A stretch of 40,000 bases of DNA from Thalassomonas actiniarum (GTDB lineage Bacteria > Pseudomonadota > Gammaproteobacteria > Enterobacterales > Alteromonadaceae), in assembly GCF_000948975.2 (NCBI RefSeq), contig NZ_CP059735.1, forward strand, positions 4,422,603 to 4,462,602, read 5' to 3'. The notes under the pieces were generated by a model. It was not told the origin of the DNA, searched no databases, and was given only the letters and a program-made list of their open reading frames with translations. Of this stretch, positions 9,116-20,560 are shown in pieces. A program made the position numbers and the translations under genes. Positions within the stretch are counted from its first letter, which is position 1, and every line of letters starts with the position of its first letter.

Positions 9116-9196
9116 CCTACGCCTGTGTATGAAGGTTTTAATAAAAGTGACGCGCAGCAGCATTTATCGAAACTCCTGCATGACACACTTATTATG
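9116..9196 (-). repeat. attC of cassette 14, degenerate (array terminus)
   Basis: A paralog of the attC at 17450-17537; shared blocks are tgtgtatga, ttttaataaaag and tcctgcatgacacactt. Both core boxes are decayed: cctacgcc instead of cctaacgc, and cttattat instead of cttgttac. Confidence 0.6.
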
Positions 9197-9404
9197 TTTC
9201 GATAATAGATTCCAGTTCTTTACCACAACGCTCAACCATTTTATTAAATTGTCCTTCAGTAACAAATAGCCTATGCACAGCAGGGTTAGTTTGACGACCC
9301 TTATCCAAATTTTCTTTTTGATCATAACCACATCTAGTCACTTTTAAAGTGGCTAGGTTTATCTCAATAAAGTATCGCGTGTCTTTATCCTGAATCTTAC
9401 TCAT
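9192..9404 (-). CDS. Cassette 14 hypothetical protein (70 aa)
   Basis: A single ORF fills the cassette. Its stop TAA lies in the degenerate R'' box. No motif recognised. Confidence 0.55.
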   Translation of the reverse strand: MSKIQDKDTRYFIEINLATLKVTRCGYDQKENLDKGRQTNPAVHRLFVTEGQFNKMVERCGKELESIIET

Positions 9405-9411
9405 TAAGCCG

Positions 9412-9500
9412 CCCTAACTTGCACAGTGTTGATGAAATTGAATAATGCCTGAAGCAGCGGTAAGTTAACGAATCCGCTGGCCTTACTTTACTTGTTAACA
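9412..9500 (-). repeat. attC of cassette 13
   Basis: The plus strand reads ccctaac...cttgttaaca. R'' is TGTTAAC, against the cassette's own 5' end GTTAACT (6/7 complementary). Confidence 0.75.
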
Positions 9501-9947
9501 GCCTTCCCCAGGCCAAATTATGTTATTACCACTTTCATCGTACTCAGGAAAAACGGTTACATTAACGACAAAACCATCACTTACCCAAAATGATAATTCG
9601 AATTCTTGTAGAACGTAGTCCTGACCATTTTCTTCAAAATCGTCATCTAACACAATATTTGGATAGACAGCCTTCAATTCTGCTATTGTCTTCCCGACTA
9701 TGCAATTATTATTAAGCTCTGCCTTATCTGAATGAGATGTAATGCAAGAAGCTAAAAAATTATCTTCGCTGCTAAAGTCGATTTCCATACCATTAGTATA
9801 TTCCCAGATAACAGATCTATCTTCTGGTCTATCTTTTAGGGCTGTGAAGTACCTTATTGATTCGGGTTGACCCCATAAGCTACGAACTTCATCCATTGTC
9901 ATCCCAAACTGAATACAATCGATGCCAATTTTTGGTTTAATTTCCAT
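9495..9947 (-). CDS. Cassette 13 hypothetical protein (150 aa)
   Basis: A single ORF fills the cassette. Its stop is the TAA of the R'' box. It is acidic and cytoplasmic-looking; no motif recognised. Confidence 0.6.
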   Translation of the reverse strand: MEIKPKIGIDCIQFGMTMDEVRSLWGQPESIRYFTALKDRPEDRSVIWEYTNGMEIDFSSEDNFLASCITSHSDKAELNNNCIVGKTIAELKAVYPNIVLDDDFEENGQDYVLQEFELSFWVSDGFVVNVTVFPEYDESGNNIIWPGEGC

Positions 9948-9951
9948 AAGC

Positions 9952-10056
9952 AGTTAACGCTGCCAACAACGGTGGAGTATGCTAGCGTGATTTTTTGCGT
10001 ATTTTTGCAAAAAGCACGACAGTATACGGAATCCGTTTTGATTGACCTTGTTATAA
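9952..10056 (-). repeat. attC of cassette 12
   Basis: The plus strand reads agttaacgc...ccttgttataa. R'' TTATAAC is the exact complement of the cassette's own 5' GTTATAA (10359-10353). Confidence 0.8.
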
Positions 10057-10061
10057 GTGAT

Positions 10062-10349
10062 TTAATTAATACCTGCATCTAATACGAATTGTTGATTATC
10101 AACCAGAATATTACCTTGCTGAAAATCTCGATTTATAAGCGGTAGATTTTTAAATAGTTTAATCAGTACAACTGTTAAATTAAATAGCGAAAAGAGAATT
10201 AATAATATTTGTTCAGGGCTAGTATTTATTGAGGTTACTGTATGGGTGAAGTGACATACAGTATTTGCACTAGCAGCCAATGCTGCTAGTGCAAAAATCA
10301 AGCTCAAGAAAAAATATACTGTAATTGCTTTCAACTCATAAGCCTCCAT
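10062..10349 (-). CDS. Cassette 12 small membrane protein (95 aa)
   Basis: Two hydrophobic helices (ITVYFFLSLIFALAALAASA; ILLILFSLFNLTVVLI). It is the only ORF in the cassette. Confidence 0.5.
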   Translation of the reverse strand: MEAYELKAITVYFFLSLIFALAALAASANTVCHFTHTVTSINTSPEQILLILFSLFNLTVVLIKLFKNLPLINRDFQQGNILVDNQQFVLDAGIN

Positions 10350-10352
10350 GAC

Positions 10353-10430
10353 TTATAACGCCCGAAACACCGGGCAATTTGTAGTTGCGAAGCAACGGAA
10401 AATTGCTCCGAGTGATTTTGCTTGTTATAC
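10353..10430 (-). repeat. attC of cassette 11
   Basis: The plus strand reads ttataacgcccgaaacaccgggcaattt ... aaaattgctccgagtgattttgcttgttatac. R'' GTATAAC is the exact complement of GTTA+TAC, which is reconstituted across the intron insertion. Confidence 0.8.
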
Positions 10431-10775
10431 ACGGTATGACTCATACTCCCAAGCATATAATTTTGCAATACGCGAAAATACCCCTTCCCAACTAACGTCA
10501 CTGCAGTCTATTAATTTATAATTGATTTCACGTAATACTTGGGTAAAGCCTTCATAATACGGAAGAATCAAAAGGTGGCTTTTGCTTTTAATTTGGGACA
10601 AAACCCCTTGTGTTACCACATGTACTTGATAATTATTAGAACCAATTTCGCCCTTAACACCAACAGAAATATTTAACCAATAATCTACCATTGATGGGTC
10701 TTCTGGCACCCATTCATCTATTGGGTCGTGGTCACAACAATCATACGACTGTATCTCAGGAGTCAATAATTTCAT
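10425..10775 (-). CDS. Cassette 11 hypothetical protein, possibly an Imm8-like immunity protein
   Basis: 116 aa. The pattern (N-terminal acidic stretch, NISVGVKGEIGSNNYQVHVVT, LLILPYY, C-terminal SWEGVFSRIAKLYAWEYESY) resembles what I recall of polymorphic-toxin immunity family Imm8. This is from memory only. Confidence 0.4.
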   Translation of the reverse strand: MKLLTPEIQSYDCCDHDPIDEWVPEDPSMVDYWLNISVGVKGEIGSNNYQVHVVTQGVLSQIKSKSHLLILPYYEGFTQVLREINYKLIDCSDVSWEGVFSRIAKLYAWEYESYRV

Positions 10776-10784
10776 CTAAGTGTA

Positions 10785-12713
10785 ATCGTGGTAGAGCGAC
10801 CTGTTACCAGGCCGACCCCACACAGATCCGGACGTGCGGAACTACCGCATCCGGCTCTTCAGTTATATATTCACTCGTGTAAAACACGACCCTAGTACCA
10901 ATCGACAATAACATTTCGACTACTGACTTTTGGTGACTCAATTTGAAAATATTCTAACATCTTCTTGAAACTGCTCCAATTATAACTTCTTCTGCCGCTA
11001 CGCCTGTTTAGCCATTTATATAAGCTATGCAGCACATAATTATATAAGCGTGACAAGCTACGACTGTTATCCGGTAAACCAAAGTAATTTCTAAACCCCG
11101 TTAATTTACGTTTTAGTTGCGGTAGCCATTCCCTCAATTTGATTGAACGTTTGGCTTTGATCCATTGGTAATATTCGCTCATCATCGCTTTCTGCTTCTT
11201 CGGAGCCGTGCGCCTTCTGAGCCTTCGTTTACCCTTGACATCAATCCCCCAATAAAATTCAAACCCAAGAAAAACAAAGTGGCGACTCTTACCAGGTTTA
11301 AATCGACTGAATGTCATCAGTGAGGTTTTCTCCGGTGCGATATCTAGATTGAATTTCTTTAGTCGTTTCGCAAGCACCCCATAAAAGCGCTCAGCATCAT
11401 GAGCAAATTGGAAGGCACAGACAAAATCATCCGCATAACGGATCATCATGGCTCTTCCCCGCATCCTCGGTTTTACTTTCTTCTCAAACCACAAATCCAA
11501 AGCATAATGCAGATAAATGTTCGCCAGTACAGGGCTGATAATACCTCCCTGCGGGCTACCGCTTGCAGGCTTTTCAAAGACCCCTTCCGGTGATTTTATC
11601 CGGGCTTTTAACCATTGGCTGATTAGCTTCAGTAAGGCTTTATCATCAATCCGTTGTTTGAGCATACGCAGCAACCAACCATGATCGAGATTGTCGAAGA
11701 AGCCTTTAATGTCCGCCTCGACAACATAACCATAACCTTTGAATTGAAGATTCAACGACAGGCTATGTACTGCCTGATGTGCACTTTTATTTGGTCGATA
11801 ACCATAACTGTTCACCAGGAAGTCTTGCTCCCAAATACTTTGCAGTATTTGGCTGACACTCTGTTGCACCAGTTTATCATCTACCGTTGGCAGGCCTAAT
11901 GGCCGTTGTTTGCCGTTAGACTTGGGAATAAAGATACGCTTAATGTCATTGGCTCGATAACATTTCTGCTTGAGCTGCTCACTTAAGCGCTTAATATTTT
12001 CTGGCAAGCTTTGCTGATAGTCATTAATGGTTACCCCATCAATACCTGGCGCAGCTTGTTTGTTGAGCTGACCCCAGCTTTGATACAGGCGGTCGCTACT
12101 TAGTAATCCGTATAAGTTTTGAAACCTGTGCTTGGGGTGGGTATATGCTTTAAATGCGATGATATTAAGTTCGGTTGTCATAGTGATCCCGGCCCTACTT
12201 TGTCCGGCCTATGTTTCTGCTTAATACCTGGTATAACTGTCAGCTCCTTCGCCATGTACAAGGCTTTCCCTTGCTCAGACTACTACGGGCTGATCTGACT
12301 TCCAAAGGGTCATCGTTCGTCTGACGGTTAGCTAGACTTTCCTACCACATCCTTATGGAACACCTTTGGATCTCTCAAGTTCCTGATACATCTCTTCATA
12401 CATGCCATGGCTTGATAACCCCGCTGACTCGCCGTAGCCTCACCTTTCGTTTGCTATGAATAACGGCTACTTTGCATGGACTTCGGTGGCGTTACAAACC
12501 TCGTCAGTCAGATGGTAATTCTCGGAGCGATACCAGCACTTCAGGGCCACGATAGCCCCTATGGCCTATATGATTCTCTGTGTACGCTTCACCTGTATTG
12601 TTCGTTTCAGTGAAACTCCGCCACAGGCGCAACACTCGATACTGGTGGCTGGTTAAGCCTTACCAGACAGGGACTTACACCCTGCAAGATGCATCAAGCT
12701 TTGCTTGACGCAC
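10785..12713 (-). mobile_element. Group II intron (class C-like, no endonuclease domain) inserted in the attC of cassette 10
   Basis: The 5' end is GTGCG at 12713-12709. Domain V is GAGCCGGATGCGGTAGTTCCGCACGTCCGGATCT (minus strand, 10857-10824; 34 nt; AGC triad). A domain VI-like helix has an A 8 nt from the 3' end ...CTACCACGAT (ends at 10785). The RT/maturase ORF sits in domain IV. Length 1929 nt. Confidence 0.88.
10892..12181 (-). CDS. Group II intron reverse transcriptase/maturase
   Basis: 429 aa. It contains APGIDGVT, the RT palm motif RYADDFV, and a C-terminal maturase (X) region rich in R/K/W/Y. I saw no HNH endonuclease tail. Confidence 0.92.
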   Translation of the reverse strand: MTTELNIIAFKAYTHPKHRFQNLYGLLSSDRLYQSWGQLNKQAAPGIDGVTINDYQQSLPENIKRLSEQLKQKCYRANDIKRIFIPKSNGKQRPLGLPTVDDKLVQQSVSQILQSIWEQDFLVNSYGYRPNKSAHQAVHSLSLNLQFKGYGYVVEADIKGFFDNLDHGWLLRMLKQRIDDKALLKLISQWLKARIKSPEGVFEKPASGSPQGGIISPVLANIYLHYALDLWFEKKVKPRMRGRAMMIRYADDFVCAFQFAHDAERFYGVLAKRLKKFNLDIAPEKTSLMTFSRFKPGKSRHFVFLGFEFYWGIDVKGKRRLRRRTAPKKQKAMMSEYYQWIKAKRSIKLREWLPQLKRKLTGFRNYFGLPDNSRSLSRLYNYVLHSLYKWLNRRSGRRSYNWSSFKKMLEYFQIESPKVSSRNVIVDWY

Positions 12714-12799
12714 TAACGCCTTACATAATAGGAAAATAATAACTGTTTAGGAGCGAAGCGACTAGTTATTATTTTTCCTTATTTATGAACTTGTTAGCT
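12714..12799 (-). repeat. attC of cassette 10 (its R' core is split by the intron)
   Basis: A near-twin of the attC at 16163-16251. R'' AGCTAAC is the exact complement of the cassette's own 5' GTTAGCT (13128-13122). The minus strand ends ...GGCGTTA, then the intron, and resumes TACAC at 10784. Confidence 0.85.
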
Positions 12800-13080
12800 G
12801 AGAAACTAAATACATCCTCAGCTTTACACTGAGGTAGAGTGTTTTTATTTATTCCATCAAAAGCAACAACATTACACCCTATACCATTATTCATTTTTTG
12901 AGTTTGTCCTTCGGCAGCAGCAAACCAACATGTACAGATTGATTTATTAGGTTCATATAATGGTGTCCAACAGGAGATAGTGCCATCATCTTCAATTTTT
13001 AATGATACTAATCCAGCCATTAGAGCAAAAGTGAAGAAAGTAGCTAAAGCCCCAAAAACTAATATGATAATAAATTTCAT
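12769..13080 (-). CDS. Cassette 10 small exported or membrane-anchored Cys-rich protein (103 aa from ATG 13080)
   Basis: The track starts at TTG 13101; ATG 13080 gives MKFIIILVFGALATFFTFALMAGL (signal or anchor). There are 5 Cys in the mature part. The ORF runs 29 nt past R'' into its attC. Confidence 0.5.
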   Translation of the reverse strand: MKFIIILVFGALATFFTFALMAGLVSLKIEDDGTISCWTPLYEPNKSICTCWFAAAEGQTQKMNNGIGCNVVAFDGINKNTLPQCKAEDVFSFSANKFINKEK

Positions 13081-13121
13081 GTATATTCTTTTAATAAACA
13101 AGGAGGAATGCGAGCTATTAC

Positions 13122-13202
13122 AGCTAACGCTAGCCTAAACGGCGAGCAACTTGTTGCGAGTCCAGCGCACGTAGTGCGCGATGTTTGAGGCCCTTGTTAG
13201 CT
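13122..13202 (-). repeat. attC of cassette 9
   Basis: The plus strand reads agctaacgctagcctaaacggcgagcaacttg ... gatgtttgaggcccttgttagct. R'' AGCTAAC is the exact complement of the cassette's own 5' GTTAGCT (13893-13887). Confidence 0.85.
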
Positions 13203-13862
13203 TTGATATTCAAAGTGACCTTCATGAACACCTCTACATAGGACTTTCAACCAAATAAAAAATTCATCCATACTGGGATCTAGCTCTAACTCTTCATCTG
13301 GTTTTTCCAAATAAGTAGTAAGCAATAACCTCCCCGTATTTGGAAGAAGTTTAATAGTATCTATTTCAAACTGAACTGTATCATCAGTAACCCCTGGTAA
13401 CCATTCCATCATTGTTGGAAATTGATAAATAAACTTATCGGTTGCAGCCAAAAATAACTCAACAACGTCAATAAAATCTTCAGTTTCAGATTCACTAGGA
13501 ATGTAATATTCATGCTCTACAGCATTACGTACAGTGTTTAATTTCTTTAGAATTCTTGGTGTAACTATTCCACACTTTTGACAAAAACCTAAGTATTGAT
13601 GGAAGTTGGGAAAGCCTTTTTTGTTGGATGTAAACCCAAAGGCCTTTGCAATAGTTTCCACTTGTAAGTGTAAAGATCTTTTGGCATTTGATAAGGCATT
13701 GACAAGGATTCTACTTGTTTTTAGAGAGTGACCGATTTCAAGGTCTTCAATTGCAAATTCCAAATAACGTCTAGGGGTAGTTTCTACTGGATATGAAATC
13801 TTATCCCAACTTGTTGCAAAATGAGGATCTAAATCACCATAATTTGATGGTAATGGAATCAA
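13197..13862 (-). CDS. Cassette 9 protein with a HEPN-type Rx4H motif (candidate RNase toxin or defence effector)
   Basis: 221 aa with a TTG start and SD GGAG 7 nt upstream. The motif is KLNTVRNAVEHEY (R-N-x-x-x-H), preceded by helix-like segments (NALSNAKRSLHLQVETIAKAF). Confidence 0.45.
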   Translation of the reverse strand: MIPLPSNYGDLDPHFATSWDKISYPVETTPRRYLEFAIEDLEIGHSLKTSRILVNALSNAKRSLHLQVETIAKAFGFTSNKKGFPNFHQYLGFCQKCGIVTPRILKKLNTVRNAVEHEYYIPSESETEDFIDVVELFLAATDKFIYQFPTMMEWLPGVTDDTVQFEIDTIKLLPNTGRLLLTTYLEKPDEELELDPSMDEFFIWLKVLCRGVHEGHFEYQS

Positions 13863-13886
13863 TTATACTCTCCGAATATTGATAGA

Positions 13887-13956
13887 AGCTAACGCTGCAA
13901 TAACCGGCGCGAGGTATGAGCGTCCGGCGCCGCAGGCGCGTAGTTAATTGCCTTGT
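13887..13956 (-). repeat. attC of cassette 8, main body (the R'' end continues at 15163-15172 on the other side of the IS)
   Basis: The plus strand reads agctaacgctgcaataaccggcgcg...cgcgtagttaattgcCTTGT, then the IS, then CTTGTtagtt. The restored R'' AACTAAC is the exact complement of the cassette's own 5' GTTAGTT (15486-15480). Confidence 0.85.
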
Positions 13957-14183
13957 ATGGATAATATCCCCCATATCTTAATATTCTTTTTAAACCTTTT
14001 CGGGTAGTGTGAGGCCCAAGCTTTGGCTGCAACCAAAGCCTTCTTATACAGCAGTTCGATGATTGCGTGGCTCCTCTGTTGAGAGACCGATAACAAGTGA
14101 GAACGCTGTATAGGACTCCAAGCATTAAACTCGGATAGTCAACTGGGCCTCGAGCCCGAATAGCAAGGCAGAGTCAGCTTATT
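13957..14183 (+). ncRNA. Candidate bridge/seek-type guide RNA region in the IS left arm
   Basis: A long non-coding arm upstream of the transposase gene. It contains a stem-loop GCTTTGG-ctgcaa-CCAAAGC (14020-14039). TAACAAGTGA at 14091-14100 is the exact reverse complement of the right-end/attC junction TCACTTGTTA (15160-15169). CAAGGCA at 14164-14170 complements TGCCTTG at the left junction. Confidence 0.4.
13960..13965 (+). promoter_or_regulatory. -10 half (GATAAT) of a promoter that forms only at the circle junction
   Basis: GATAAT lies 3 nt inside the left end. See the -35 entry at 15148-15153. Confidence 0.6.
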
Positions 14184-15153: not shown

Positions 15154-15176
15154 CCATAGTCACTTGTTAGTTTACT

Positions 15177-15476
15177 TTACCTAAATTTGGCACCACATTT
15201 TTGACATGATTTAGGTCTGATTTCAACGCCTTCGCCACCTAACGCAAATGGAACTGTATTACACTTTGGGCATCTATAAAATAACCAAACACCAATATTA
15301 AAGACCAAAACGCCAAAAAGTGCGCCATAGAAAGGGTTAAACAATTCTAGATTAAAAGACTTAAGAATAAATCCACTTGCGAAGAGTGATACAGTTAAAA
15401 GCAATACAGTATAAAAGCGCTTTTGGACAGTTTTAAACTGCTCTGATACATCATCCATAATTGAGTAATACTCCAA
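15177..15476 (-). CDS. Cassette 8 small membrane protein with a C-terminal zinc-ribbon-like CxxC...CxxC
   Basis: 99 aa from TTG 15476 (alternative ATG at 15458). It has two TM helices and then YRCPKCNTV...CQKCGAKF. Confidence 0.5.
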   Translation of the reverse strand: MEYYSIMDDVSEQFKTVQKRFYTVLLLTVSLFASGFILKSFNLELFNPFYGALFGVLVFNIGVWLFYRCPKCNTVPFALGGEGVEIRPKSCQKCGAKFR

Positions 15477-15479
15477 GTA

Positions 15480-15536
15480 AACTAACGCCGCGCTCAGACG
15501 CCGCTTTCTGCGGTCGTCTGCAGCGCCTTGTTAGGC
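15480..15536 (-). repeat. attC of cassette 7 (short, 57 bp)
   Basis: The plus strand reads aactaacgccgcgctcagacgccgctttctgcggtcgtctgcagcgccttgttaggc. R'' GCCTAAC is the exact complement of the cassette's own 5' GTTAGGC (16169-16163). Confidence 0.85.
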
Positions 15537-16141
15537 ATTTCACTGCTCACTACTTTAGATAATTTCAAAAGGGCCTTTTTAACATTATCCCATTCAATGT
15601 CGTCATCTCCTATTGGGGCCTCATGAGCGTCCAGCAGAGACTGGCGAAAGTTGACCATTGCATCCTCCATAGCCATACTTTCATTAGCTAATGGTAATTC
15701 AGACCAATAAAGCTGTTCAAATCGCGTCCATAGCTCCTCATTAAGAGGCTCTCTTCTAGAAAGTTTTTTAGCTATGTCAGCTGCTTCTAGATAAAGAGAT
15801 TCTTTTGGAGGTAATTTGCTTAGGGTCGTAAGCTGCTCTTCTGCCCAAGATAAAACCCTCTCATCTTTTGCAAAGGATTTTATGAAACGCAGCTTACGTT
15901 TCCATATTTCAGGCTTTGAAGAATCCATTGCCTTAAGATAGGATTTTAGAAGCTCTCTATCATGCATCGATTCTTCTTTTGTTCGCTCTAAAGTCAGCTT
16001 CCCATAATCGATGAGAAAGAATGAAATTACAGCTGCGATTGCTACAACAACCCACTTTCTAAGCTCTAGGCTTAATTTTTGTCGTTCGAGAGCAAGTTTC
16101 TCTTTTTCTATCTCAAGCTTTTTGAGTTCAATTTCATCCAT
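15494..16141 (-). CDS. Cassette 7 hypothetical membrane-anchored coiled-coil protein (215 aa)
   Basis: An N-terminal coiled-coil (LKKLEIEKEKLALERQKLSLEL) is followed by a TM helix (VVVAIAAVISFFLI). The ORF reads through R'' and stops inside its attC. Confidence 0.6.
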   Translation of the reverse strand: MDEIELKKLEIEKEKLALERQKLSLELRKWVVVAIAAVISFFLIDYGKLTLERTKEESMHDRELLKSYLKAMDSSKPEIWKRKLRFIKSFAKDERVLSWAEEQLTTLSKLPPKESLYLEAADIAKKLSRREPLNEELWTRFEQLYWSELPLANESMAMEDAMVNFRQSLLDAHEAPIGDDDIEWDNVKKALLKLSKVVSSEMPNKALQTTAESGV

Positions 16142-16162
16142 TTAATTCACCGAAATAGTAGT

Positions 16163-16251
16163 GCCTAACGCCTTACATAATAGGAGAATAATAGCTGTTT
16201 AGGAGCAAAGCGACTAGCTATTATTTTTCCTTATTTATGAATTTGTTAGGA
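16163..16251 (-). repeat. attC of cassette 6 (uninterrupted twin of the intron-bearing attC)
   Basis: It has 5 internal differences from 12714-12799 plus a different base in the R'' box (the twin reads ...gttagct). The differences include a compensatory pair that preserves the stem. The plus strand reads gcctaacgccttacataataggagaataatagct...agctattatttttccttatttatgaatttgttagga. Confidence 0.85.
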
Positions 16252-16827
16252 TTTCTTTATCTTGATAATCCATACAACAGACATATTCTTCGGACGAATT
16301 TCTGACGAATCAAATTTAACCTTTATTAAACCACCAGGCGCGCTCCAGTGCCCTCCAAACGGAAAAGAAGTGTTAATTCCACTTTTCGGTATAGTTACCG
16401 GTTCATGAGTATAAGCACCAGGCCCAGTATTTTGAATTGAAAACGACTTCCAATCATGATCTTGCATTATGCCAGAGCTATTACTACCTCGTAAAAAGCG
16501 TGCCTCACCATTCAAGTTAGGTACTTTCTTTTTATAAAAAGGCGACTCTTCATCAAAAACGGTTTGTCCGTCGCATTCAAGCCATTGTTCGCCTAACTCA
16601 AGAGAGTTTTCCATTCCTTTATGCCAAGCTATGATTGCTCCAATAGGTAAGCCATTTGAAACTACTTGCACTTCGGCTATTTCTTCTTTTATAAATCCTA
16701 GCTTGCCGTCACCATAATTAAATGAAACGTTACCAACGTATAAAAGAGCTAGGAATATAGACAAAAGTAAAAAAGATAATGCTATTAGCCATTTTGGGGT
16801 TTGCTCTATAAGTTTATTCCAATCCAC
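16246..16827 (-). CDS. Cassette 6 membrane-anchored protein with a phage tail-collar-like domain
   Basis: 193 aa with a GTG start and SD AGGAG 6 nt upstream. It has an N-terminal TM helix. LPIGAIIAW...QWLECDGQTV...VPNLNGEARFLRGS...IRPKNMSVVWIIKI resembles the tail-collar pattern (G-x-I-x-W, W-x-x-CDG, P-[DN]-L-x-G-x-F-x-RG, RP-x-N...I-I-K). Confidence 0.45.
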   Translation of the reverse strand: MDWNKLIEQTPKWLIALSFLLLSIFLALLYVGNVSFNYGDGKLGFIKEEIAEVQVVSNGLPIGAIIAWHKGMENSLELGEQWLECDGQTVFDEESPFYKKKVPNLNGEARFLRGSNSSGIMQDHDWKSFSIQNTGPGAYTHEPVTIPKSGINTSFPFGGHWSAPGGLIKVKFDSSEIRPKNMSVVWIIKIKKS

Positions 16828-16850
16828 ATTACTCTCCTTTTACCCTAAAG

Positions 16851-16934
16851 GCACAACGACTTAACCAACTGATCTCATTGCATTTTGTGCGGAACACCCA
16901 GTAATAAAACTCCGATAACATTAACTTGTTAGGC
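16851..16934 (-). repeat. attC of cassette 5
   Basis: The plus strand reads gcacaacgacttaac...ataacattaacttgttaggc. R'' GCCTAAC is the exact complement of the cassette's own 5' GTTAGGC (17456-17450). The left (R') box GTTGTGC is atypical. Confidence 0.7.
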
Positions 16935-17444
16935 ATTTTGGTCCCGCAAATATAATAGAGCAAACCGCCAATCTTCTAAAACTTTACATAAACCACCAAA
17001 ATCAGTTGATTCACCGATAATCACTTTAATTCCAGTGTATAAAGGAAACTCAGTATCTTCATTAATTCCGAAGTACCGAAGCGTCTTAGTTGTTCCGTTA
17101 ACCGGCCACGAAATCCACTCTTCATTGTGTTTGAAGAAGTTGGCAAGAGCATTAATTAACTCTACATGGGTGTAATCGTGGTAATTAGTTTCTTTATACT
17201 TATAAAGTTCAATTTTGCTATAGTTAGATTTTTGTATTTTATTTATATCGCTAACCGTGCCAACTGCATAAGCTTGACATGCGACCAATAATGCTCCGTG
17301 GAAAGATTCAGCGTACTCCATTGCTGTTAACCCATCCATAATACCTTCTGTGGAAAAACTTATTAACTCAGCAACTGCATTTGTTGATGCTGTACTAAGA
17401 ACTCTTAGTGGAGCTGACCGGTAATCCATTTCTTTATAATGCAT
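16929..17444 (-). CDS. Cassette 5 hypothetical protein (171 aa from ATG 17444)
   Basis: The track start at 17528 would read through the upstream attC. ATG 17444 is the first start inside the cassette, 6 nt after the GTTAGGC core. No confident motif. Confidence 0.6.
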   Translation of the reverse strand: MHYKEMDYRSAPLRVLSTASTNAVAELISFSTEGIMDGLTAMEYAESFHGALLVACQAYAVGTVSDINKIQKSNYSKIELYKYKETNYHDYTHVELINALANFFKHNEEWISWPVNGTTKTLRYFGINEDTEFPLYTGIKVIIGESTDFGGLCKVLEDWRFALLYLRDQNA

Positions 17445-17449
17445 ATGTA

Positions 17450-17537
17450 GCCTAACGCTTGTGTATGAGGATTTTAATAAAAGCTTTGGCGCGTAGCGAC
17501 ATTTTATTAAAATTCCTGCATGACACACTTGTTACAT
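17450..17537 (-). repeat. attC of cassette 4
   Basis: The plus strand reads gcctaacgcttgtgtatgaggattttaataaaag...attttattaaaattcctgcatgacacacttgttacat. R'' ATGTAAC is the exact complement of the cassette's own 5' GTTACAT (18085-18079). Confidence 0.85.
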
Positions 17538-17539
17538 AC

Positions 17540-18049
17540 TTATAACTTGGTTGAAAGCCAAATAGCAAATTTTGTCGAGTATTTTACGACCCAGTGTATT
17601 GGTAAATATATGAAAGAGTTAGAGCCATGAAGTTGTCCGTATCTTTGGTGCTCCTCTTCATCTGATTTAATACTTAAGACAGCCTCGTAAGCGGTAGTGC
17701 TGTTTAATTTTAAGTAATTTAATTGTTCATCTAAATGGTGAAGGACAGTGCTTTCAATTGCGTTTGTACACACCCAAATTGATTTTCGGCCTAATAGGGC
17801 TGTAATTATCCCTAAAACAAAGCCGCCAAACGCCCAGAACCAGAGAGCATAACAATGGCGCACTTCATTGTTTTGTAACCATAGATCAAAACGTTGAAAG
17901 TGCTCTTTTTCATGTTCAAGCATTTCTGCTAATTTAGGTTTGATATCTTTATAAAGGAGGTTGGCTATTAACATCTGGGATCTGTAAATATTAATAGCTC
18001 CAAACTCACCAGCATGGTCAACTCTAATGATTCTCTCAACTTCTTTCAT
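17540..18049 (-). CDS. Cassette 4 COQ7-like (demethoxyubiquinone hydroxylase family) di-iron carboxylate protein
   Basis: 169 aa. RVDHAGEFGAINIY, EHEKEH and SDEEEHQ are E-x-x-H-type di-iron ligand motifs typical of COQ7. Confidence 0.75.
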   Translation of the reverse strand: MKEVERIIRVDHAGEFGAINIYRSQMLIANLLYKDIKPKLAEMLEHEKEHFQRFDLWLQNNEVRHCYALWFWAFGGFVLGIITALLGRKSIWVCTNAIESTVLHHLDEQLNYLKLNSTTAYEAVLSIKSDEEEHQRYGQLHGSNSFIYLPIHWVVKYSTKFAIWLSTKL

Positions 18050-18078
18050 ATTAGATGGTGCCGGATAATTTCAGGAGT

Positions 18079-18136
18079 ATGTAACGCTGCAAACACCGGA
18101 GCAGCTTGCTGCGTCCGGCGTTTTGCCTTGTTATTG
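18079..18136 (-). repeat. attC of cassette 3
   Basis: The plus strand reads atgtaacgctgcaaacaccggagcagcttgctgcgtccggcgttttgccttgttattg. R'' is CAATAAC, against the cassette's own 5' GTTATTC (6/7). Confidence 0.8.
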
Positions 18137-18427
18137 GCTGCCAGCTGTAACCACAAACCTGGCAACGTTGAAAATAGCTTGAAGCGTAAACGGAAGATGC
18201 TAAAGACACCCACCACCGCTACGCACCAAGCCGTGAATTTTGAGCCCGACACTACAGCCAGAACAAGCTAATGACTTTACCACCTTTAGTGCTTTTGAAA
18301 AAGAAAGAGGAAAGTCTATTAGCGGGAACATCTAACCGTTCCGGCGAAAACCCACCGGAATCACGCACTAAAGCCAGCTAGGAAATACCGCTATTTCCAA
18401 AATATTTAGCATGAACTAGCGGTGGCC
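18137..18427 (-). other. Cassette 3: ORF-less cassette (about 290 bp between two attC sites)
   Basis: No ORF of 60 aa or more is confined to the cassette. The best internal minus-strand ORF is 43 aa (ATG 18331, MFPLIDFPLSF...) with a poor SD. It contains the hairpins GGAAATA-ccgc-TATTTCC (18381-18398) and TTCCGG-cgaaaaccca-CCGGAA (18339-18360). Confidence 0.6.
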
Positions 18428-18541
18428 GAATAACGCCCGCAACACCGGTGGCAAAAGCGGAGCGGCTTTGTGCTAAAATTTGCGAAGCAAATGCACAATG
18501 GCGCGTAGCTTTTGACATCCGTGTGCTTGCGCTTGTTATGC
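18428..18541 (-). repeat. attC of cassette 2 (long, 114 bp)
   Basis: The plus strand reads gaataacgcccgcaacaccggtggc...gtgtgcttgcgcttgttatgc. R'' GCATAAC is the exact complement of the cassette's own 5' GTTATGC (19049-19043). Confidence 0.8.
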
Positions 18542-19024
18542 CTGAACATTGAGCGACATTAGCTTGGCATTCATGCCGTAGCTTGAACAAATAGATGCAT
18601 TATGAACCTCTCGGAAGCCGAACTTGAACCAATAACCCCCTGATCCTTGAACGGCGACAAGAAGTACACGATTAAATTGCCTCAATTTAGCTACTTGTAT
18701 GAGCTTACTTGACAGTTGCTTCCCTATACCTGACTCCCTTGCATTATTACTTACCGCCAAATCGTGAAGATATAAGGTATCACCAGCAGACTTGCGAGGA
18801 AGCTCTTCAAATAATTTAGGTGGCTCATCGGAATTCCAAGGGTGAGCGAGCAAGTACCCTAAAATCTCATTGCTGCTGGATTGAAACACAAAGCAGGTTT
18901 CAGGCGATGCTTTCCATTTGCTTTTAAGTACATCGACTTCCTCTGGTGGAACTCCTGTATATGCTTCCTCTTGCACCTTAAGGATTCCTTGCCATGACTT
19001 TTCTGATATTTCGACTATAGACAT
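18536..19024 (-). CDS. Cassette 2 GNAT-family N-acetyltransferase (162 aa from ATG 19024)
   Basis: The acetyl-CoA pocket motif is HDLAVSNNARESGIGKQLSSKLIQ (R/Q-x-x-G-x-G/A). The track start at 19102 lies inside the upstream attC, so I moved it to MSIVEISEKSW. Confidence 0.8.
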   Translation of the reverse strand: MSIVEISEKSWQGILKVQEEAYTGVPPEEVDVLKSKWKASPETCFVFQSSSNEILGYLLAHPWNSDEPPKLFEELPRKSAGDTLYLHDLAVSNNARESGIGKQLSSKLIQVAKLRQFNRVLLVAVQGSGGYWFKFGFREVHNASICSSYGMNAKLMSLNVQA

Positions 19025-19042
19025 TACTTGATTCCAAGGATG

Positions 19043-19111
19043 GCATAACGCATGCATTTGCGGAAAATTGGAGCGCAGCGGAAATTTTTCCGTAACATGC
19101 ACTTGTTATGT
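19043..19111 (-). repeat. attC of cassette 1
   Basis: The plus strand reads gcataacgcatgcatttgcggaaaatt...aatttttccgtaacatgcacttgttatgt. R'' ACATAAC is the exact complement of GTTATGT at the attI junction (19367-19361). Confidence 0.85.
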
Positions 19112-19354
19112 TTATTTTGCACTCTTTTTCCATAATATGAACTTACCTTTAAAAGCACAAACGATAAAATAAACAGCAATTACAGATAAAACAATGGGAT
19201 ACAAGATCCAGTACTCATTATGCGATTCAGGGAAATAGTGTTCACTAATTTGAACAAAGATATATCGGTCAATTGCAAATGCGAATAACGAAAATGAAAT
19301 AAGAATAGAAATTATGCACTTAGCATTTTTAGTCACAATTGTTCCTTCGGCCAT
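19112..19354 (-). CDS. Cassette 1 small membrane protein (80 aa from ATG 19354)
   Basis: Two TM helices (IISILISFSLFAFAI; ILYPIVLSVIAVYFIVCAF). The track's TTG start at 19384 lies upstream of the attI/cassette junction. Confidence 0.5.
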   Translation of the reverse strand: MAEGTIVTKNAKCIISILISFSLFAFAIDRYIFVQISEHYFPESHNEYWILYPIVLSVIAVYFIVCAFKGKFILWKKSAK

Positions 19355-19360
19355 CGATAA

Positions 19361-19388
19361 ACATAACAGCTTAGCAGTCGGCAAAAAA
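19361..19388 (-). other. attI recombination site (core GTTATGT plus an adjacent inverted half-site)
   Basis: The minus strand reads gccgactGCTAAGCtGTTATGTtt. GTTATGT matches the R'' of cassette 1, which places the crossover at G(19367)/TT. The extent of attI towards intI is uncertain. Confidence 0.55.
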
Positions 19389-19404
19389 CCGTATTTAAAT
19401 ACAG
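19389..19404. promoter_or_regulatory. LexA-box-like palindrome between attI and intI
   Basis: CCGTATTTAAATACAG differs from the gammaproteobacterial SOS box CTGT-N8-ACAG at one position. It sits within a 28-bp near-palindrome, aaaaaaccgtatttaaatacagtttttt. A possible plus-strand promoter, TTAGCA (19371-19376)-18 nt-TTAAAT (19395-19400), overlaps it. Confidence 0.4.
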
Positions 19405-19558
19405 TTTTTTCCCGTCTTTAAATAATTTAATAAAATGTAAAATATACATTCCCCTTATCATATCAAGCCATTAGTATTATTTCGAGAATTGAAGAAATAA
19501 TAAAAATACCTTTTTTTGCCGTCTAATAAGGCTATCAATTAAAGAACGTCTAAACTGT

Positions 19559-20560
19559 ATGAATATACAGCAATCATTAAGGGCAATATCAATGTCCCAA
19601 TCTCCATTCTTAGCCTATATCAACGAATTTATGATCACCCGCAGATATGCCAAAAGAACCATAGAAACATACCTCTACTGGGTGAAGAAATATATCCTTT
19701 TTCATAACAAAAAGCATCCTTCAACTTTAGGCGAGCATGATGTTGAGTATTTTTTAACTTACCTGTCAGCACAAAACAATGTTGCCCCCGGCACTCAAGC
19801 AATAGCCCTGAATGCCCTGGTATTTCTTTATAAAGAAATCATTCAAGCCCCGCTATCCTTAAACCTGGATTTCAATAAATCGTCACGTCAGGCAAAACTG
19901 CCTACGGTACTCACCCCGGAAGAAGTAAGCACCTTATTGAATGCGGTATCCGCACAATATTCTTTACCGGCTCAACTCATGTATGGCAATGGTTTACGGT
20001 TAATGGAAACCATAAGAATGCGAATTCAAGATATAGATTTTGATTATCTATGCCTGTTGATATGGCGTGGTAAAGGCAATAAACACCGCAGGGTGACCTT
20101 AGCTAAAGAACTGGTTGAACCGCTCAAGCATCAAATAGCCAGCTGCAAAAAATATTACGGCATAGATATGAAAAATAAAGATTACCTTGGGGTGTGGTTA
20201 CCTCATGCACTGGCAAAAAAGTATCCCGCAGCACCGAAAGAGTTAGGTTGGCATTATTTATTTCCCTCTGCCCGCTTGAGTCGGGATCCTCATGCCAATA
20301 ACGCACTCAGGCGTCATCATATTGATGAAAGCTGTTTACAAAAAGCCGTGAAGCATGCAGCAAAACAAGCAAGAATAACGAAAAATGTCAGTTGTCATAC
20401 GTTACGTCATAGCTTTGCAACCCATTTATTACAACGTGGTTGTGACATTCGCACCGTACAAGAACAATTGGGACATATCGATGTCCGCACCACTCAAATT
20501 TATACCCATGTCATTCAGGCCGGAGCCGATGGGGTGCGTAGCCCGTTAAGTGATTTATAA
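19559..20560 (+). CDS. intI: Integron integrase IntI (tyrosine recombinase)
   Basis: 333 aa, similar along its length to my recollection of Vibrio cholerae IntIA. Shared segments include RYAKRTIETYLYWVKKYILFHNKKHPS, GLRLMETIRMRIQDIDFDY, the IntI-specific insertion LPHALAKKYPAAPKELGWHYLFPS, HTLRHSFATHLL and GHIDVRTTQIYTHV (catalytic Tyr). The R-K-H-R-H-Y residues are all present. A later start (MSQSPF, 19592) is possible. Confidence 0.94.
   Translation: MNIQQSLRAISMSQSPFLAYINEFMITRRYAKRTIETYLYWVKKYILFHNKKHPSTLGEHDVEYFLTYLSAQNNVAPGTQAIALNALVFLYKEIIQAPLSLNLDFNKSSRQAKLPTVLTPEEVSTLLNAVSAQYSLPAQLMYGNGLRLMETIRMRIQDIDFDYLCLLIWRGKGNKHRRVTLAKELVEPLKHQIASCKKYYGIDMKNKDYLGVWLPHALAKKYPAAPKELGWHYLFPSARLSRDPHANNALRRHHIDESCLQKAVKHAAKQARITKNVSCHTLRHSFATHLLQRGCDIRTVQEQLGHIDVRTTQIYTHVIQAGADGVRSPLSDL

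What the first reader, a model, noticed from the sequence alone, without database searches (positions are those of the whole stretch)
9116..20560. Complete chromosomal integron with 14 cassettes, validated by each cassette's R''/R' complementarity
intI (19559-20560) has the IntI-specific insertion (LPHALAKKYPAAPKELGWHYLFPS) and all catalytic residues. Fourteen short units on the opposite strand each end in an imperfect palindrome of 57-114 bp, bounded on the plus strand by yTAACGC...CTTGTTAr.

A cassette's own R' core is its 3' G plus the TTRRRY at its own 5' end. I therefore tested whether each cassette's 5' end complements its own R''. The results:
- Exact 7/7 for cassettes 1, 2, 4, 5, 7, 8, 9, 10, 11 and 12.
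- 6/7 for cassettes 3 and 13.
- Failure only for cassette 6 and the decayed terminal cassette 14.

This pattern is hard to obtain unless these are real IntI-mobilised cassettes with the boundaries given. Almost all cargo is of unknown function. Chromosomal integron arrays are known reservoirs of toxin, immunity and anti-phage genes, so this is the most likely place in the window for undescribed functions.
Basis: partly seen in the sequence, partly recalled or inferred. Interest (0 to 1): 0.7.

Follow-up and report, generated by a model that had tools for sequence, protein, structure and literature searches.

The report
Chromosomal integron invaded by two parasites
This is a genuine, intact-looking chromosomal integron of the marine bacterium Thalassomonas actiniarum carrying about 14 gene cassettes; that is an ordinary kind of element, but two of its recombination sites have been invaded by mobile elements (a group II intron and an IS110-type insertion sequence) that appear to target integron sites in poorly described ways.

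Summary

**Integrase.** intI (19559-20560, probable true start 19592) is a full-length integron integrase. It scores 453 bits on TIGR02249 (cutoff 265) and E 2e-128 against VchIntIA. The only LexA box in the window lies just upstream.

**Cassettes.** Fourteen cassettes lie divergently on the minus strand.
- The "own R'/R''" test reproduces exactly: 10 at 7/7, 2 at 6/7, 2 failures. None of 200,000 permutations reached 10 exact matches.
- A covariance model trained on this array's palindromes finds 77 sites in 56 foreign intI loci. All 77 are upstream of intI on the opposite strand.
- attC5, attC13 and attC14 are degenerate.

**Context.** The locus is syntenic with Thalassomonas sp. RHCl1. That species has a broken intI and entirely different cassettes.

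- attC8 is split by a 1,211-bp IS110-type element.
- The R' core of attC10 is split (GTTA|TAC) by a 1,929-nt group II intron in cassette orientation. Cassette 11's 7/7 score holds only after removing the intron.
- Relatives of both elements also sit in attC sites.
- The intron lineage targets the top strand, the opposite of known IIC-attC introns.

**Verdict.** The integron is a new member of a known kind. The intron lineage is the more novel lead.

The parts
19559..20560 (+). intI, integron integrase (longest ORF 333 aa; probable true start M12 at 19592, giving 322 aa)
   Evidence: TIGR02249 scores 453.2 bits against a cutoff of 265, covering profile positions 1-315 of 315. Pfam finds Phage_integrase plus Phage_int_SAM_4. 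It aligns with VchIntIA 2A3V at E 2e-128, with catalytic R/K/HxxR/H/Y and the IntI-specific insertion conserved.
19555..19570 (.). LexA-box-like palindrome CTGTATGAATATACAG, just upstream of the probable intI start
   Evidence: It is the only CTGTN8ACAG match in the 40-kb window, where 0.34 are expected. Its role as an SOS operator is inferred from established knowledge of integrons.
19367..19554 (-). attI region and probable Pc region; crossover G at 19367 (GTTATGT)
   Evidence: The window, L049 and L016 stay conserved up to AAGCTGTTA and diverge immediately after. GTTATGT is the exact complement of cassette 1's R'' ACATAAC. Promoter-like hexamers are not above chance.
19049..19366 (-). Cassette 1: 80-aa hydrophobic (probably membrane) protein (19354-19112) plus attC1 (19111-19043, 69 nt)
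   Evidence: Own-R' test 7/7. Canonical bottom-strand fold at -13.6 kcal/mol. No family hits.
18434..19048 (-). Cassette 2: GNAT acetyltransferase (19024-18536) plus attC2 (18541-18428, 114 nt)
   Evidence: Pfam Acetyltransf_1 at E 5.6e-11. Own-R' test 7/7. Fold at -34.9 kcal/mol.
18085..18433 (-). Cassette 3: no conserved ORF, probably non-coding, plus attC3 (18136-18079, 58 nt)
   Evidence: Own-R' test 6/7. The body is about 88% identical to L016 4473-4781 in a second integron of another species. Substitutions are not codon-like and the stop codon is not conserved.
17456..18084 (-). Cassette 4: COQ7-family di-iron protein (18049-17540) plus attC4 (17537-17450, 88 nt)
   Evidence: Pfam COQ7 at E 6.6e-46. 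It falls below the NCBIfam equivalog cutoff (55 bits against 180). Own-R' test 7/7.
16857..17455 (-). Cassette 5: unknown protein of about 171 aa, plus degenerate attC5 (16934-16851) with R' mutated to GTTGTGC
   Evidence: Own-R' test 7/7. attC5 folds weakly (-4.6 kcal/mol) and scores at noise level (12.6 bits). A homologue in L016 2241-2324 keeps the canonical GTTAGGC.
16169..16856 (-). Cassette 6: 193-aa protein with a hydrophobic N-terminal segment and a tail-collar-like C-terminal domain, plus attC6 (16251-16163, 89 nt)
   Evidence: phrog_1800 tail collar fibre at E 6.2e-8. One homologue carries PF07484. Own-R' test 4/7, explained by decay of the attC5 R'.
15486..16168 (-). Cassette 7: 215-aa unknown protein, with its stop codon inside attC7 (15536-15480, 57 nt)
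   Evidence: Own-R' test 7/7. Fold at -20.3 kcal/mol with two bulges on the R''-L'' arm.
13893..15485 (-). Cassette 8: 99-aa hydrophobic protein with a weak zinc-ribbon match; its attC8 is split into 15172-15163 and 13951-13887 by the IS
   Evidence: Own-R' test 7/7. An uninterrupted homologous attC in L016 4055-4129 defines the insertion point after R''+AAG.
13952..15162 (+). IS110-group insertion sequence (1,211 bp, with a 5-nt CTTGT overlap at both junctions). It has a 232-nt left end encoding a probable bridge RNA, the transposase at 14184-15137 and a 25-nt right end.
   Evidence: NF033542 scores 196.9 bits against a cutoff of 140. Pfam finds DEDD_Tnp_IS110 plus Transposase_20. The left-end fold is conserved, with 7 compensatory pairs and guide-like loops. 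Relatives in L137-L139 occupy the same attC position.
13128..13892 (-). Cassette 9: 221-aa protein with a weak HEPN-like match (RNAVEH motif), plus attC9 (13202-13122, 81 nt)
   Evidence: PF18735 HEPN_RiboL-PSP at E 0.0094, below cutoff. 74 homologues occur in Vibrio, Shewanella and Photobacterium, and one of them carries PF18735. Own-R' test 7/7.
12717..13127 (-). Cassette 10: small Cys-rich protein of about 103 aa with a hydrophobic N-terminus, plus attC10 (12799-12714, plus TAC at 10784-10782)
   Evidence: Own-R' test 7/7. attC10 is about 93% identical to attC6. Its R' is interrupted after GTTA by the intron.
10785..12713 (-). Group II intron (1,929 nt; GUGCG...GAU) with RT/maturase ORF 12181-10892. 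It is inserted in the top strand of the attC10 R' core, in the same orientation as the cassettes.
   Evidence: Rfam RF02005 matches 12409-12677 at 86.7 bits. RF00029 (DV-DVI) matches 10785-10859 at 36.5 bits and ends at the predicted 3' end. TIGR04416 scores 374 bits against a cutoff of 300. EBS1 TAACGCC pairs with the 5' exon GGCGTTA, and this pairing covaries in relatives.
10359..12716 (-). Cassette 11 (429 bp without the intron): Imm8 immunity protein (10775-10425) plus attC11 (10430-10353, 78 nt)
   Evidence: Pfam Imm8 at E 9e-18. Own-R' test 7/7 only after intron removal, GTTA|TAC. attC11 is 98.6% identical to L016 2599-2670.
9958..10358 (-). Cassette 12: 95-aa hydrophobic protein plus attC12 (10056-9952, 105 nt)
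   Evidence: Own-R' test 7/7. The model scores it at 49.7 bits, but it was a training member.
9418..9957 (-). Cassette 13: 150-aa unknown protein plus atypical attC13 (9500-9440 by the model; alternative R' GTTAGGG at 9418)
   Evidence: Own-R' test 6/7. The model scores it at 16.4 bits, E 0.042. It folds poorly.
9116..9417 (-). Cassette 14: 70-aa unknown ORF plus decayed terminal attC14 (9197-9115), a homologue of attC4
   Evidence: Own-R' test 4/7. The model scores it at 17.7 bits, E 0.019. Sequence conserved with the sister species begins at 9193, so this attC marks the fixed end of the array.

Best explanation
**What it is.** This is a sedentary chromosomal integron of Thalassomonas actiniarum.

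**How it works.**
- intI encodes a tyrosine recombinase of the IntI clade.
- By analogy with VchIntIA, IntI recognises the folded bottom strand of attC hairpins through their extrahelical bases.
- It cuts between the G and TT of the R' core.
- It exchanges circular cassettes between attC sites and the attI site next to intI.
- intI is probably repressed by LexA and induced by the SOS response.

**Layout.**
- Fourteen cassettes, mostly one short promoterless-looking gene each, are stacked on the strand opposite intI.
- They are presumably read from a promoter in the attI/intI region.
- By GC skew the cassette-coding (top) strand is the leading strand. The recombinogenic bottom strands therefore lie on the leading-strand template.

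**State of the sites.**
- About ten attC sites look competent.
- attC5, attC13 and attC14 have decayed.
- attC8 is disabled by an IS110-group element inserted after R''+AAG.
- The attC10 R' core is split 3 nt after the crossover by a group II intron lying in cassette orientation. That intron could be co-transcribed and spliced out.

**Shown versus inferred.**
- Shown: the identity of the parts, their boundaries, the past IntI-type insertion of most cassettes, and cassette turnover between species.
- Inferred: present-day activity, SOS control, the cassette promoter (Pc) and intron splicing.
For: **Integrase**
- TIGR02249 scores 453 bits against a cutoff of 265.
- It aligns full length with the 2A3V structure, with catalytic residues and the IntI insertion conserved.
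- The single LexA-box match in 40 kb lies at 19555-19570.

**attI**
- Three-way conservation ends at the predicted crossover.

**attC sites**
- Folds are canonical, with bulges on the R''-L'' arm.
- The own-R' rule gives 10/14 exact matches, and none of 200,000 permutations reached that.
- The model trained here hits only the array within the window.
- In 56 foreign intI loci it gives 77 hits, all upstream of intI on the opposite strand.

**Chromosomal and sedentary**
- The flanks are 92% identical to a 467-kb contig of Thalassomonas sp. RHCl1.
- In between, that contig has different cassettes and a fragmented intI.
- The cassette 9 and cassette 6 proteins are 100% identical to T. actiniarum proteins on a 6.56-Mb contig.

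**Cassette mobility**
- Cassette 3 and several attCs recur at 88-98% identity in a second integron (L016) of RHCl1.
- The array has 35-39% GC against 44-51% in the flanks.

**Intron and IS boundaries**
- These rest.
Against: - No experiment shows recombination.
- IntegronFinder's own attC model was not available. My model was trained on the same array, so only its behaviour on foreign loci is independent.
- No cassette promoter stands out above chance.
- Three attCs are at or near noise level.
- The attC sites are heterogeneous (mean column identity 40%). This differs from the uniform repeats of classic Vibrio superintegrons.
- The closest relative's syntenic intI is a pseudogene, so loss of function occurs in this lineage.
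Confidence: 0.92

Rival explanations
1. It is a fossil integron. The platform and array record past IntI activity, but the system is now inactive because of silent expression, decayed sites or parasite load. The cassettes would then behave as ordinary chromosomal genes.
For: - attC5, attC13 and attC14 are degenerate.
- attC8 and attC10 are interrupted.
- The sister species has a broken intI at the same locus.
- No promoter signal rises above chance.
Against: - intI is full length, with every catalytic and IntI-specific residue, and it keeps a LexA box.
- Ten junctions still show perfect 7/7 R''/R' complementarity, which drift would erode.
- Cassette content differs completely from the sister species, implying recent turnover.
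Confidence: 0.15
2. It is a mobile integron carried on a transposon, genomic island or ICE, not a sedentary chromosomal one.
For: - The attC sites are heterogeneous in length and sequence, as in mobile integrons.
- The array is short compared with Vibrio superintegrons.
- Low-GC DNA continues to about 7900, beyond the array.
Against: - Both flanks, the attI-intI platform and the terminal attC are syntenic at about 92% identity in another species.
- No transposition or conjugation genes flank the element.
- The only transposase present is an IS inside an attC.
Confidence: 0.04
3. The palindromes are a different repeat family (REP/BIME-like or terminator hairpins) that happens to lie beside a Xer-like recombinase.
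For: No positive evidence. The only gap is that no curated attC model could be run here.
Against: - The repeats occur only between intI and 9116, all on one strand.
- The same model finds arrays next to intI in about 25 other taxa and nowhere else in 785 kb.
- The cross-junction complementarity rule is specific to G|TT exchange.
- The recombinase passes the integron-integrase model, not the XerC or XerD models.
Confidence: 0.01

Closest known systems
Vibrio cholerae superintegron and its integrase VchIntIA (PDB 2A3V)
   Same: - The integrase family is the same, with a full-length alignment at E 2e-128.
- intI and the array are divergent.
- A LexA box lies at intI.
- The cargo is mostly unknown small proteins.
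- By GC skew, the bottom strands lie on the leading-strand template.
- The cassette 9 family also occurs in V. cholerae.
   Different: - It has 14 cassettes in 10 kb, where (from my own knowledge) the Vibrio superintegron has well over 100.
- The attC sites are heterogeneous (57-114 nt, mean column identity 40%), unlike the uniform ~120-nt VCRs.
- The host belongs to the Colwelliaceae.
Integrons of Thalassomonas sp. RHCl1 (loci L049 and L016)
   Same: - L049 is the orthologous locus, with the same flanks, attI and terminal attC.
- L016 shares cassette 3 and near-identical attCs (97-98%) with this array.
   Different: - In L049, intI is broken into 117-aa and 90-aa fragments. Only two strong attCs remain and the genes are different.
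- The L016 intI gives 83% amino-acid identity over the best aligned segment and sits at another locus.
- Neither locus holds this IS or this intron within the stretch fetched.
Group IIC-attC introns (S.ma.I2 type); a comparator is present in the Psychromonas arctica integron, L053
   Same: - Both are En-minus group II introns that use an attC hairpin plus a short IBS1 in the conserved core as their target.
- Both insert a few nucleotides from the IntI crossover.
   Different: - The known lineage inserts in the bottom strand after TTGT/T of R'', opposite to the cassettes (PMC3001079, PMC7923331; seen in L053).
- This intron and its relatives insert in the top strand after CGTTA of R', in the same orientation as the cassettes.
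- They use a 5-7 bp EBS1 pairing.
- They match a different Rfam ribozyme family: RF02005, where the L053 intron matches RF02001 and RF01998.
- The RT is only 30% identical.
IS1111-attC insertion sequences (ISKpn4, ISPst6) and the IS621 bridge-RNA system
   Same: - Both encode a DEDD transposase.
- Both show orientation-specific insertion at one end of attC (PMC11187229).
- The left-end RNA has an internal loop. Its 5' side copies the left target flank and its 3' side is antisense to the right flank, as in the IS621 bridge RNA (PMC11208160).
   Different: - The long non-coding end lies upstream of the transposase (232 nt against 25 nt). That is the IS110-group layout, not the IS1111 layout.
- I could not check whether this family is already named in ISfinder.

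Membership tests
Integron (IntI + attI + attC cassette array) | Tyrosine recombinase of the IntI clade with the IntI-specific additional domain | tested here: met
   TIGR02249 scores 453.2 bits against a cutoff of 265, while the XerC and XerD models fall far below their cutoffs. The insertion aligns with VchIntIA residues ~189-232.
Integron (IntI + attI + attC cassette array) | Catalytic R-K-H-R-H-Y residues intact | tested here: met
   All six are conserved in the alignment to 2A3V: LRLME, GKG, HTLRHSFATH, LGH and IYTH.
Integron (IntI + attI + attC cassette array) | attC sites with R''/R' cores, L boxes, extrahelical bases and a variable loop | tested here: met
   Nine sites give canonical DNA folds with bulges on the R''-L'' arm. 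Eleven sites score at least 29 bits in my model, ten of them being its training sequences. The model generalises to 77 sites in foreign arrays. Three sites are degenerate. IntegronFinder's model was not run.
Integron (IntI + attI + attC cassette array) | Cassette junctions produced by exchange at G|TT, so that each cassette's 5' hexamer complements its own R'' | tested here: met
   Of 14 junctions, 10 are exact and 2 are 6/7. None of 200,000 permutations reached 10 exact matches.
Integron (IntI + attI + attC cassette array) | attI adjacent to intI, with the array divergent from intI | tested here: met
   Conservation among three platforms stops at the crossover. All attCs and cassette ORFs lie on the strand opposite intI.
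Integron (IntI + attI + attC cassette array) | Cassette promoter Pc | tested here: inconclusive
   Six promoter-like sites were found against 3.4 +/- 2.1 expected.
Integron (IntI + attI + attC cassette array) | Demonstrated site-specific recombination | not testable with these tools
   This needs excision or integration assays.
Sedentary chromosomal integron (superintegron type) | Fixed chromosomal location shared by related species | tested here: met
   The flanks, platform and terminal attC are syntenic with Thalassomonas sp. RHCl1 contig 4 at about 92% identity.
Sedentary chromosomal integron (superintegron type) | Large array of highly similar, species-specific attC repeats | tested here: not met
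   There are only 14 cassettes. attC lengths range from 57 to 114 nt and mean column identity is 40%. Only small sub-families exist: attC6/attC10 and attC4/attC14.
Group II intron | Ribozyme domains plus RT/maturase, GUGYG...AY ends and EBS1-IBS1 pairing | tested here: met
   RF02005 scores 86.7 bits. RF00029 scores 36.5 bits, just under its threshold of 40. TIGR04416 scores 374 bits against a cutoff of 300. The ends are GTGCG...GAT. A 7-bp EBS1 pairing covaries in relatives.
Group IIC-attC intron lineage | Insertion in the attC bottom strand at TTGT/T, opposite to the cassettes | tested here: not met
   It is inserted in the top strand at GGCGTTA/T, in cassette orientation. The comparator in L053 does meet this feature.
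Group IIC-attC intron lineage | Class C ribozyme and IEP | tested here: inconclusive
   Its Rfam family differs from that of the L053 comparator. The RT is equidistant from IIA, IIB and IIC structures. No phylogeny against the Zimmerly reference set was possible.
IS110 group (bridge-RNA-guided) | DEDD/Tnp transposase, long left end and short right end, no long inverted repeats | tested here: met
   NF033542 scores 196.9 bits against a cutoff of 140. The left end is 232 nt and the right end 25 nt. This layout is the one given in PMC11208160.
IS110 group (bridge-RNA-guided) | Left-end RNA with loops complementary to target and donor | tested here: inconclusive
   The fold is conserved, with 7 compensatory pairs in 4 sequences. 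TAACAAG is antisense to the right flank. Copies of the left flank (ATTGC, TTAAATG, TTGAAC) sit on the other side of the loop. ATAGTC(A/T) covaries with the right end of the IS. There are only four sequences and no RNA data.
IS1111-attC group | Long non-coding region downstream of the transposase, with subterminal inverted repeats | tested here: not met
   The long non-coding region lies upstream. Inverted repeats were not searched for systematically.

The most novel reading that the evidence does not exclude
**Claim.** The intron in attC10 represents an undescribed lineage of attC-specific group II introns that is not class C.

**How it would work.**
- These introns reverse-splice into the top strand of attC hairpins, right after ...CGTTA of the R' core.
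- They therefore sit in cassette orientation, can be co-transcribed with the array, and can splice out.
- This mirrors the known IIC-attC introns, which use the bottom strand, insert at R'', and lie antisense.

**Why it fits chromosomal integrons.** In chromosomal integrons the top strand is the lagging-strand template. That is the substrate that En-minus introns prefer.

**Evidence.**
- 7 of 11 relatives with enough upstream sequence (49-86% RT identity) show an R''-like TAAC(A/G)A motif 50-105 nt upstream of the junction, on the same strand.
- EBS1 covaries with the exon.

**Related observation.** An IS110-group element, distinct from the IS1111 group, carries a bridge-RNA-like guide to the conserved R''+AAG of attC.
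Probability: 0.45. Interest if true: 0.6.

Novelty: new member of a known kind. Interest (0 to 1): 0.4.

Why it matters
**The integron itself.**
- It adds a well-delimited example from Colwelliaceae with single-nucleotide cassette boundaries.
- It comes with a natural comparison: the sister species has a dead intI and a collapsed array.
- The cargo is mostly unknown small, often hydrophobic proteins. The recognisable items are an orphan Imm8 immunity gene, a weak HEPN-like protein and a tail-collar-like protein.
- That is useful for cassette-function screens, but it is not surprising.

**The two parasites matter more.**
- Three unrelated kinds of mobile element now appear to home on the few conserved bases of attC: IIC-attC introns, IS110/IS1111 elements, and this top-strand intron lineage.
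- If the top-strand lineage is real, it would change how intron insertion affects cassette expression. A spliceable sense insertion replaces a polar antisense block.
- It would also make testable whether attC top-strand hairpins form in vivo.

Tried and rejected
**Searches that failed or were too strict**
- A strict RYYYAAC...GTTRRRY regular expression found only one real site, attC5. The first R'' base here is often not a purine.
- An ungapped 25-nt arm comparison found only attC1, because of the extrahelical bases. I switched to manual sites plus folding.
- Exact-sequence look-ups of IntI and the transposase found nothing, probably because the annotated start codons differ.

**Cargo**
- PADLOC gave no credible defence-system hit for the cargo.
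- PHROGs hit only cassette 6.

**Region beyond the array**
- I looked for extra attCs in the low-GC stretch 7900-9115 and none scored.
- That stretch is conserved in the sister species, so it is not part of the variable array.

**Rejected alternative for cassette 11**
- I considered that the GTTATAC at 12237 is cassette 11's true start.
- I rejected it because it lies inside the intron between D1-D4 and the RT ORF.
- The EBS1 pairing and the DV-DVI boundary support the GTTA|TAC junction instead.

**Things I could not settle**
- The E. cloacae top-strand intron paper and the Tetu & Holmes IS1111-attC paper could not be retrieved.
- I could not assign the intron to a Zimmerly class. PDB RT comparisons were uninformative.
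- No structure prediction was run; the remaining cargo stays unannotated.

Full report
**1. What is in the sequence.**
- The ORF at 19559-20560 (+) encodes a 333-aa tyrosine recombinase.
- It scores 453 bits on NCBIfam TIGR02249 "integron integrase" (cutoff 265), covering the whole profile. It fails the XerC, XerD and XerA equivalog cutoffs by wide margins.
- It aligns from residue 15 to 332 with the crystallised VchIntIA (PDB 2A3V) at E 2e-128.
- The only match to the LexA consensus CTGTN8ACAG in the 40-kb window lies at 19555-19570 (0.34 expected in the whole window).
- That box overlaps the first ATG. The orthologue in the sister species starts at MSQSPF. The true start is therefore probably M12 at 19592, with the box acting as an SOS operator. 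The operator role is inferred from what is known of other integrons.

**2. The recombination sites.**
- Reading the minus strand, I located an attI crossover (GTTATGT, G at 19367) and 14 attC-like sites.
- With DNA parameters, attC1, 2, 3, 4, 6, 7, 9, 11 and 12 fold as a 5-7 bp R box, a 2-3 nt unpaired spacer, and an L stem. Single-base bulges lie almost only on the R''-L'' arm, and the terminal loop is variable. That is the canonical attC shape.
- attC5, attC13 and attC14 fold weakly.

**3.
- Exchange occurs at G|TT, so the six bases after each crossover belong to the next cassette and should complement that cassette's own R''.
- Permuting the pairing gives on average 1.0 exact match. The maximum was 8, and none of 200,000 permutations reached 10.
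- The failure of cassette 6 is explained. A homologue of attC5 in another integron keeps R' GTTAGGC, whereas this copy reads GTTGTGC.

**4. An independent-as-possible attC test.**
- IntegronFinder was not available. I built a covariance model from ten of the window's sites.
- Within the window it hits only the array. The best hit elsewhere scores 12.7 bits.
- attC14 (17.7 bits) and attC13 (16.4 bits, ending at 9440) are marginal. attC5 (12.6 bits) is at noise level.
- The informative test is on foreign DNA. In 56 loci that encode IntI relatives (785 kb, about 25 taxa from Vibrio to Cellvibrionaceae), the model gives 77 hits at E <= 0.01.
- Every one of those hits lies upstream of intI on the opposite strand.
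- The palindromes therefore belong to the attC family.

**5. attI and chromosomal context.**
- Two cassette proteins are 100% identical to Thalassomonas actiniarum proteins on a 6.56-Mb contig.
- Locus L049 of Thalassomonas sp. RHCl1 is syntenic. Window 1-2814, 7185-9193 and 20427-30573 match it at about 92% identity.
- Between those flanks RHCl1 has a fragmented intI (117-aa and 90-aa ORFs), only two strong attCs, and unrelated genes.
- Conserved sequence resumes at 9193, inside the decayed attC14. That site marks the fixed distal end of the array.
- A three-way alignment of the attI regions (window, L049 and a second RHCl1 integron, L016) stays conserved up to ...AAGCTGTTA and diverges immediately after, at the predicted crossover.
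- Cassette 3 and several attCs recur in L016 at 88-98% identity next to different genes.
- The array has 35-39% GC, against 44-51% in the flanks.

**6. Cargo.**
- Recognisable items:
  - a GNAT acetyltransferase (cassette 2);
  - a COQ7-family di-iron protein (cassette 4), below the equivalog cutoff;
  - Imm8, an immunity protein of polymorphic toxin systems (cassette 11);
  - a weak HEPN-like protein with an RNAVEH motif (cassette 9), whose 74 homologues are mainly in Vibrio, Shewanella and Photobacterium;
  - a protein with a hydrophobic N-terminal segment and a phage tail-collar-like domain (cassette 6).
- Cassette 3 has no conserved ORF. Its substitutions against the L016 copy are not codon-like and the stop codon is not conserved.
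- The remaining seven cassettes encode small, often hydrophobic proteins with no hits in Pfam, NCBIfam, PADLOC or PHROGs.

**7. An insertion sequence in attC8.**
- An uninterrupted homologue of attC8 in L016 shows that a 1,211-bp element (15162-13952) sits right after R''+AAG. The pentamer CTTGT occurs at both junctions.
- Its transposase passes the IS110 equivalog (196.9 bits, cutoff 140).
- The long non-coding end (232 nt) lies upstream of the gene and only 25 nt lie downstream. That is the IS110-group layout, not the IS1111 layout (PMC11187229, PMC11208160). The described attC-targeting ISs (ISKpn4, ISPst6) belong to IS1111.
- Relatives at 65-73% identity in Pseudoalteromonas and Vibrio replicons sit in cassette arrays in the same position and orientation. 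Their right flank is CTTGTTA(G/T).
- The four left ends share a fold with 7 compensatory pairs.
- In the first internal loop, the 3' side is TAACAAG, antisense to the right flank. The 5' side copies each element's own left flank: ATTGC, TTAAATG or TTGAAC.
- ATAGTC(A/T) in the left end covaries with the right end of the IS.
- This is the arrangement described for the IS621 bridge RNA. It rests on four sequences only.

**8. A group II intron in attC10.**
- Rfam finds D1-D4 (RF02005, 86.7 bits). It also finds DV-DVI (RF00029, 36.5 bits) ending exactly at 10785.
- The RT/maturase passes TIGR04416.
- The intron runs from 12713 (GTGCG) to 10785 (...CACGAT).
- It splits the R' core as GTTA|TAC. Only after its removal does cassette 11 score 7/7.
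- EBS1 (TAACGCC, intron nt 220-226) pairs with the 5' exon GGCGTTA.
- The intron lies on the same strand as the cassettes, that is, in the attC top strand.
- Published attC-specific introns (IIC-attC) insert in the bottom strand at TTGT/T of R'', antisense to the cassettes (PMC3001079, PMC7923331, PMC4424553).
- Same-orientation cases are reported only as isolated oddities (PMC7923331, PMC9229058).
- A canonical comparator is present in my data. In the Psychromonas arctica integron (L053), an intron lies antisense after CCTTGT| with 3' exon TATAAGC. It matches other Rfam families (RF02001, RF01998), and its RT is 30% identical to this one.

**9. The intron's relatives.**
- Metagenomic relatives with 49-86% RT identity all match RF02005 where tested.
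- They end their 5' exon in ...CGTTA, with a few variants.
- In 7 of 11 relatives with enough upstream sequence, an R''-like TAAC(A/G)A motif lies 50-105 nt upstream on the same strand.
- Four of the sites (the window, L057, L060 and L063) are supported by my model as attCs ending at the junction. Several others fold as attC-like hairpins.
- EBS1 covaries with the exon: L058 G with C; L063 and L069 GAC with GTC; L066 CACTA with TAGTG.
- GC skew is negative on the plus strand almost throughout the window. The top strand is therefore the lagging-strand template.
- From my own knowledge of RmInt1-type introns, the lagging-strand template is the preferred substrate of En-minus introns.
- I could not assign the intron to a formal class.

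**10. Verdict.**
- This is a chromosomal integron with an intact-looking, probably SOS-controlled integrase and about ten competent attC sites.
- Activity is inferred, not shown.
- As an integron it is a new member of a known kind.
- The unreported intron and IS, and especially the top-strand attC-targeting intron lineage, are the parts a specialist would find worth following.

Noticed in passing
window 10785-12713 (-); relatives L057, L060, L062, L063, L069, L074: A group II intron splits the attC10 R' core (GTTA|TAC) in the top strand, in cassette orientation. Its relatives (49-86% RT identity) sit in the same position after attC-like hairpins, and EBS1 covaries with the 5' exon. Known IIC-attC introns do the opposite, inserting in the bottom strand at R''.
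   Followed up: partly
window 13952-15162 (+); relatives L137, L138, L139: An IS110-group element (long left end, short right end) is inserted after R''+AAG of attC8. Relatives in Vibrio and Pseudoalteromonas arrays occupy the same position. The left-end RNA fold has loops matching the target flanks and the right end of the IS, like an IS621 bridge RNA.
   Followed up: partly
window 19555-19570: A perfect LexA-box consensus, CTGTATGAATATACAG, is the only one in 40 kb. It overlaps the first ATG of the longest intI ORF, so the real start is probably M12 at 19592.
   Followed up: partly
window 18085-18433 (-); L016 4473-4781: Cassette 3 has no ORF, yet its body is about 88% identical to a cassette in a second integron of another species. 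Its attC diverges strongly right after R''. It contains a very conserved hairpin, TTCCGGTGGGTTTTCGCCGGAA. It could be a small RNA or a regulatory cassette.
   Followed up: partly
window attC9 (13122-13202) and attC11 (10353-10430) vs L016 5547-5627 and 2596-2673: These attC sites are 97-98% identical between two species, but no similarity was detected in the adjacent genes. The pattern is same attC, different gene, and I have no explanation for it.
   Followed up: no
window 7407-7676 (-): A SymE-family type I toxin gene (Pfam SymE_toxin, E 1.5e-10) lies just beyond the distal end of the array. It is conserved in the sister species.
   Followed up: no
window 7900-9115: This low-GC (35%) stretch beyond the last attC holds small ORFs, including a 68-aa Cys-rich protein with a hydrophobic N-terminus (8433-8639, +). 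It is 91.5% conserved in the sister species. It might be fossilised former cassettes, but no attC remnant scored.
   Followed up: partly
window 2814-7185: A MacAB-like efflux operon (HlyD-family adaptor, ABC ATPase, FtsX/MacB permease) is present here. It is precisely absent from the syntenic locus of Thalassomonas sp. RHCl1.
   Followed up: partly
L053 7400-9360 and 5759-5828 (+): The Psychromonas arctica integron array carries a canonical antisense intron at CTTGT|T of an attC R''. A second DV-DVI fragment lies further along the same array.
   Followed up: partly
window 12231-12237 (-): The heptamer GTTATAC, identical to the restored R' of attC10 and cassette 11, occurs inside the intron upstream of the RT ORF. 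It is probably chance (about a 12% chance in 1.9 kb), but it could mislead boundary calling.
   Followed up: no
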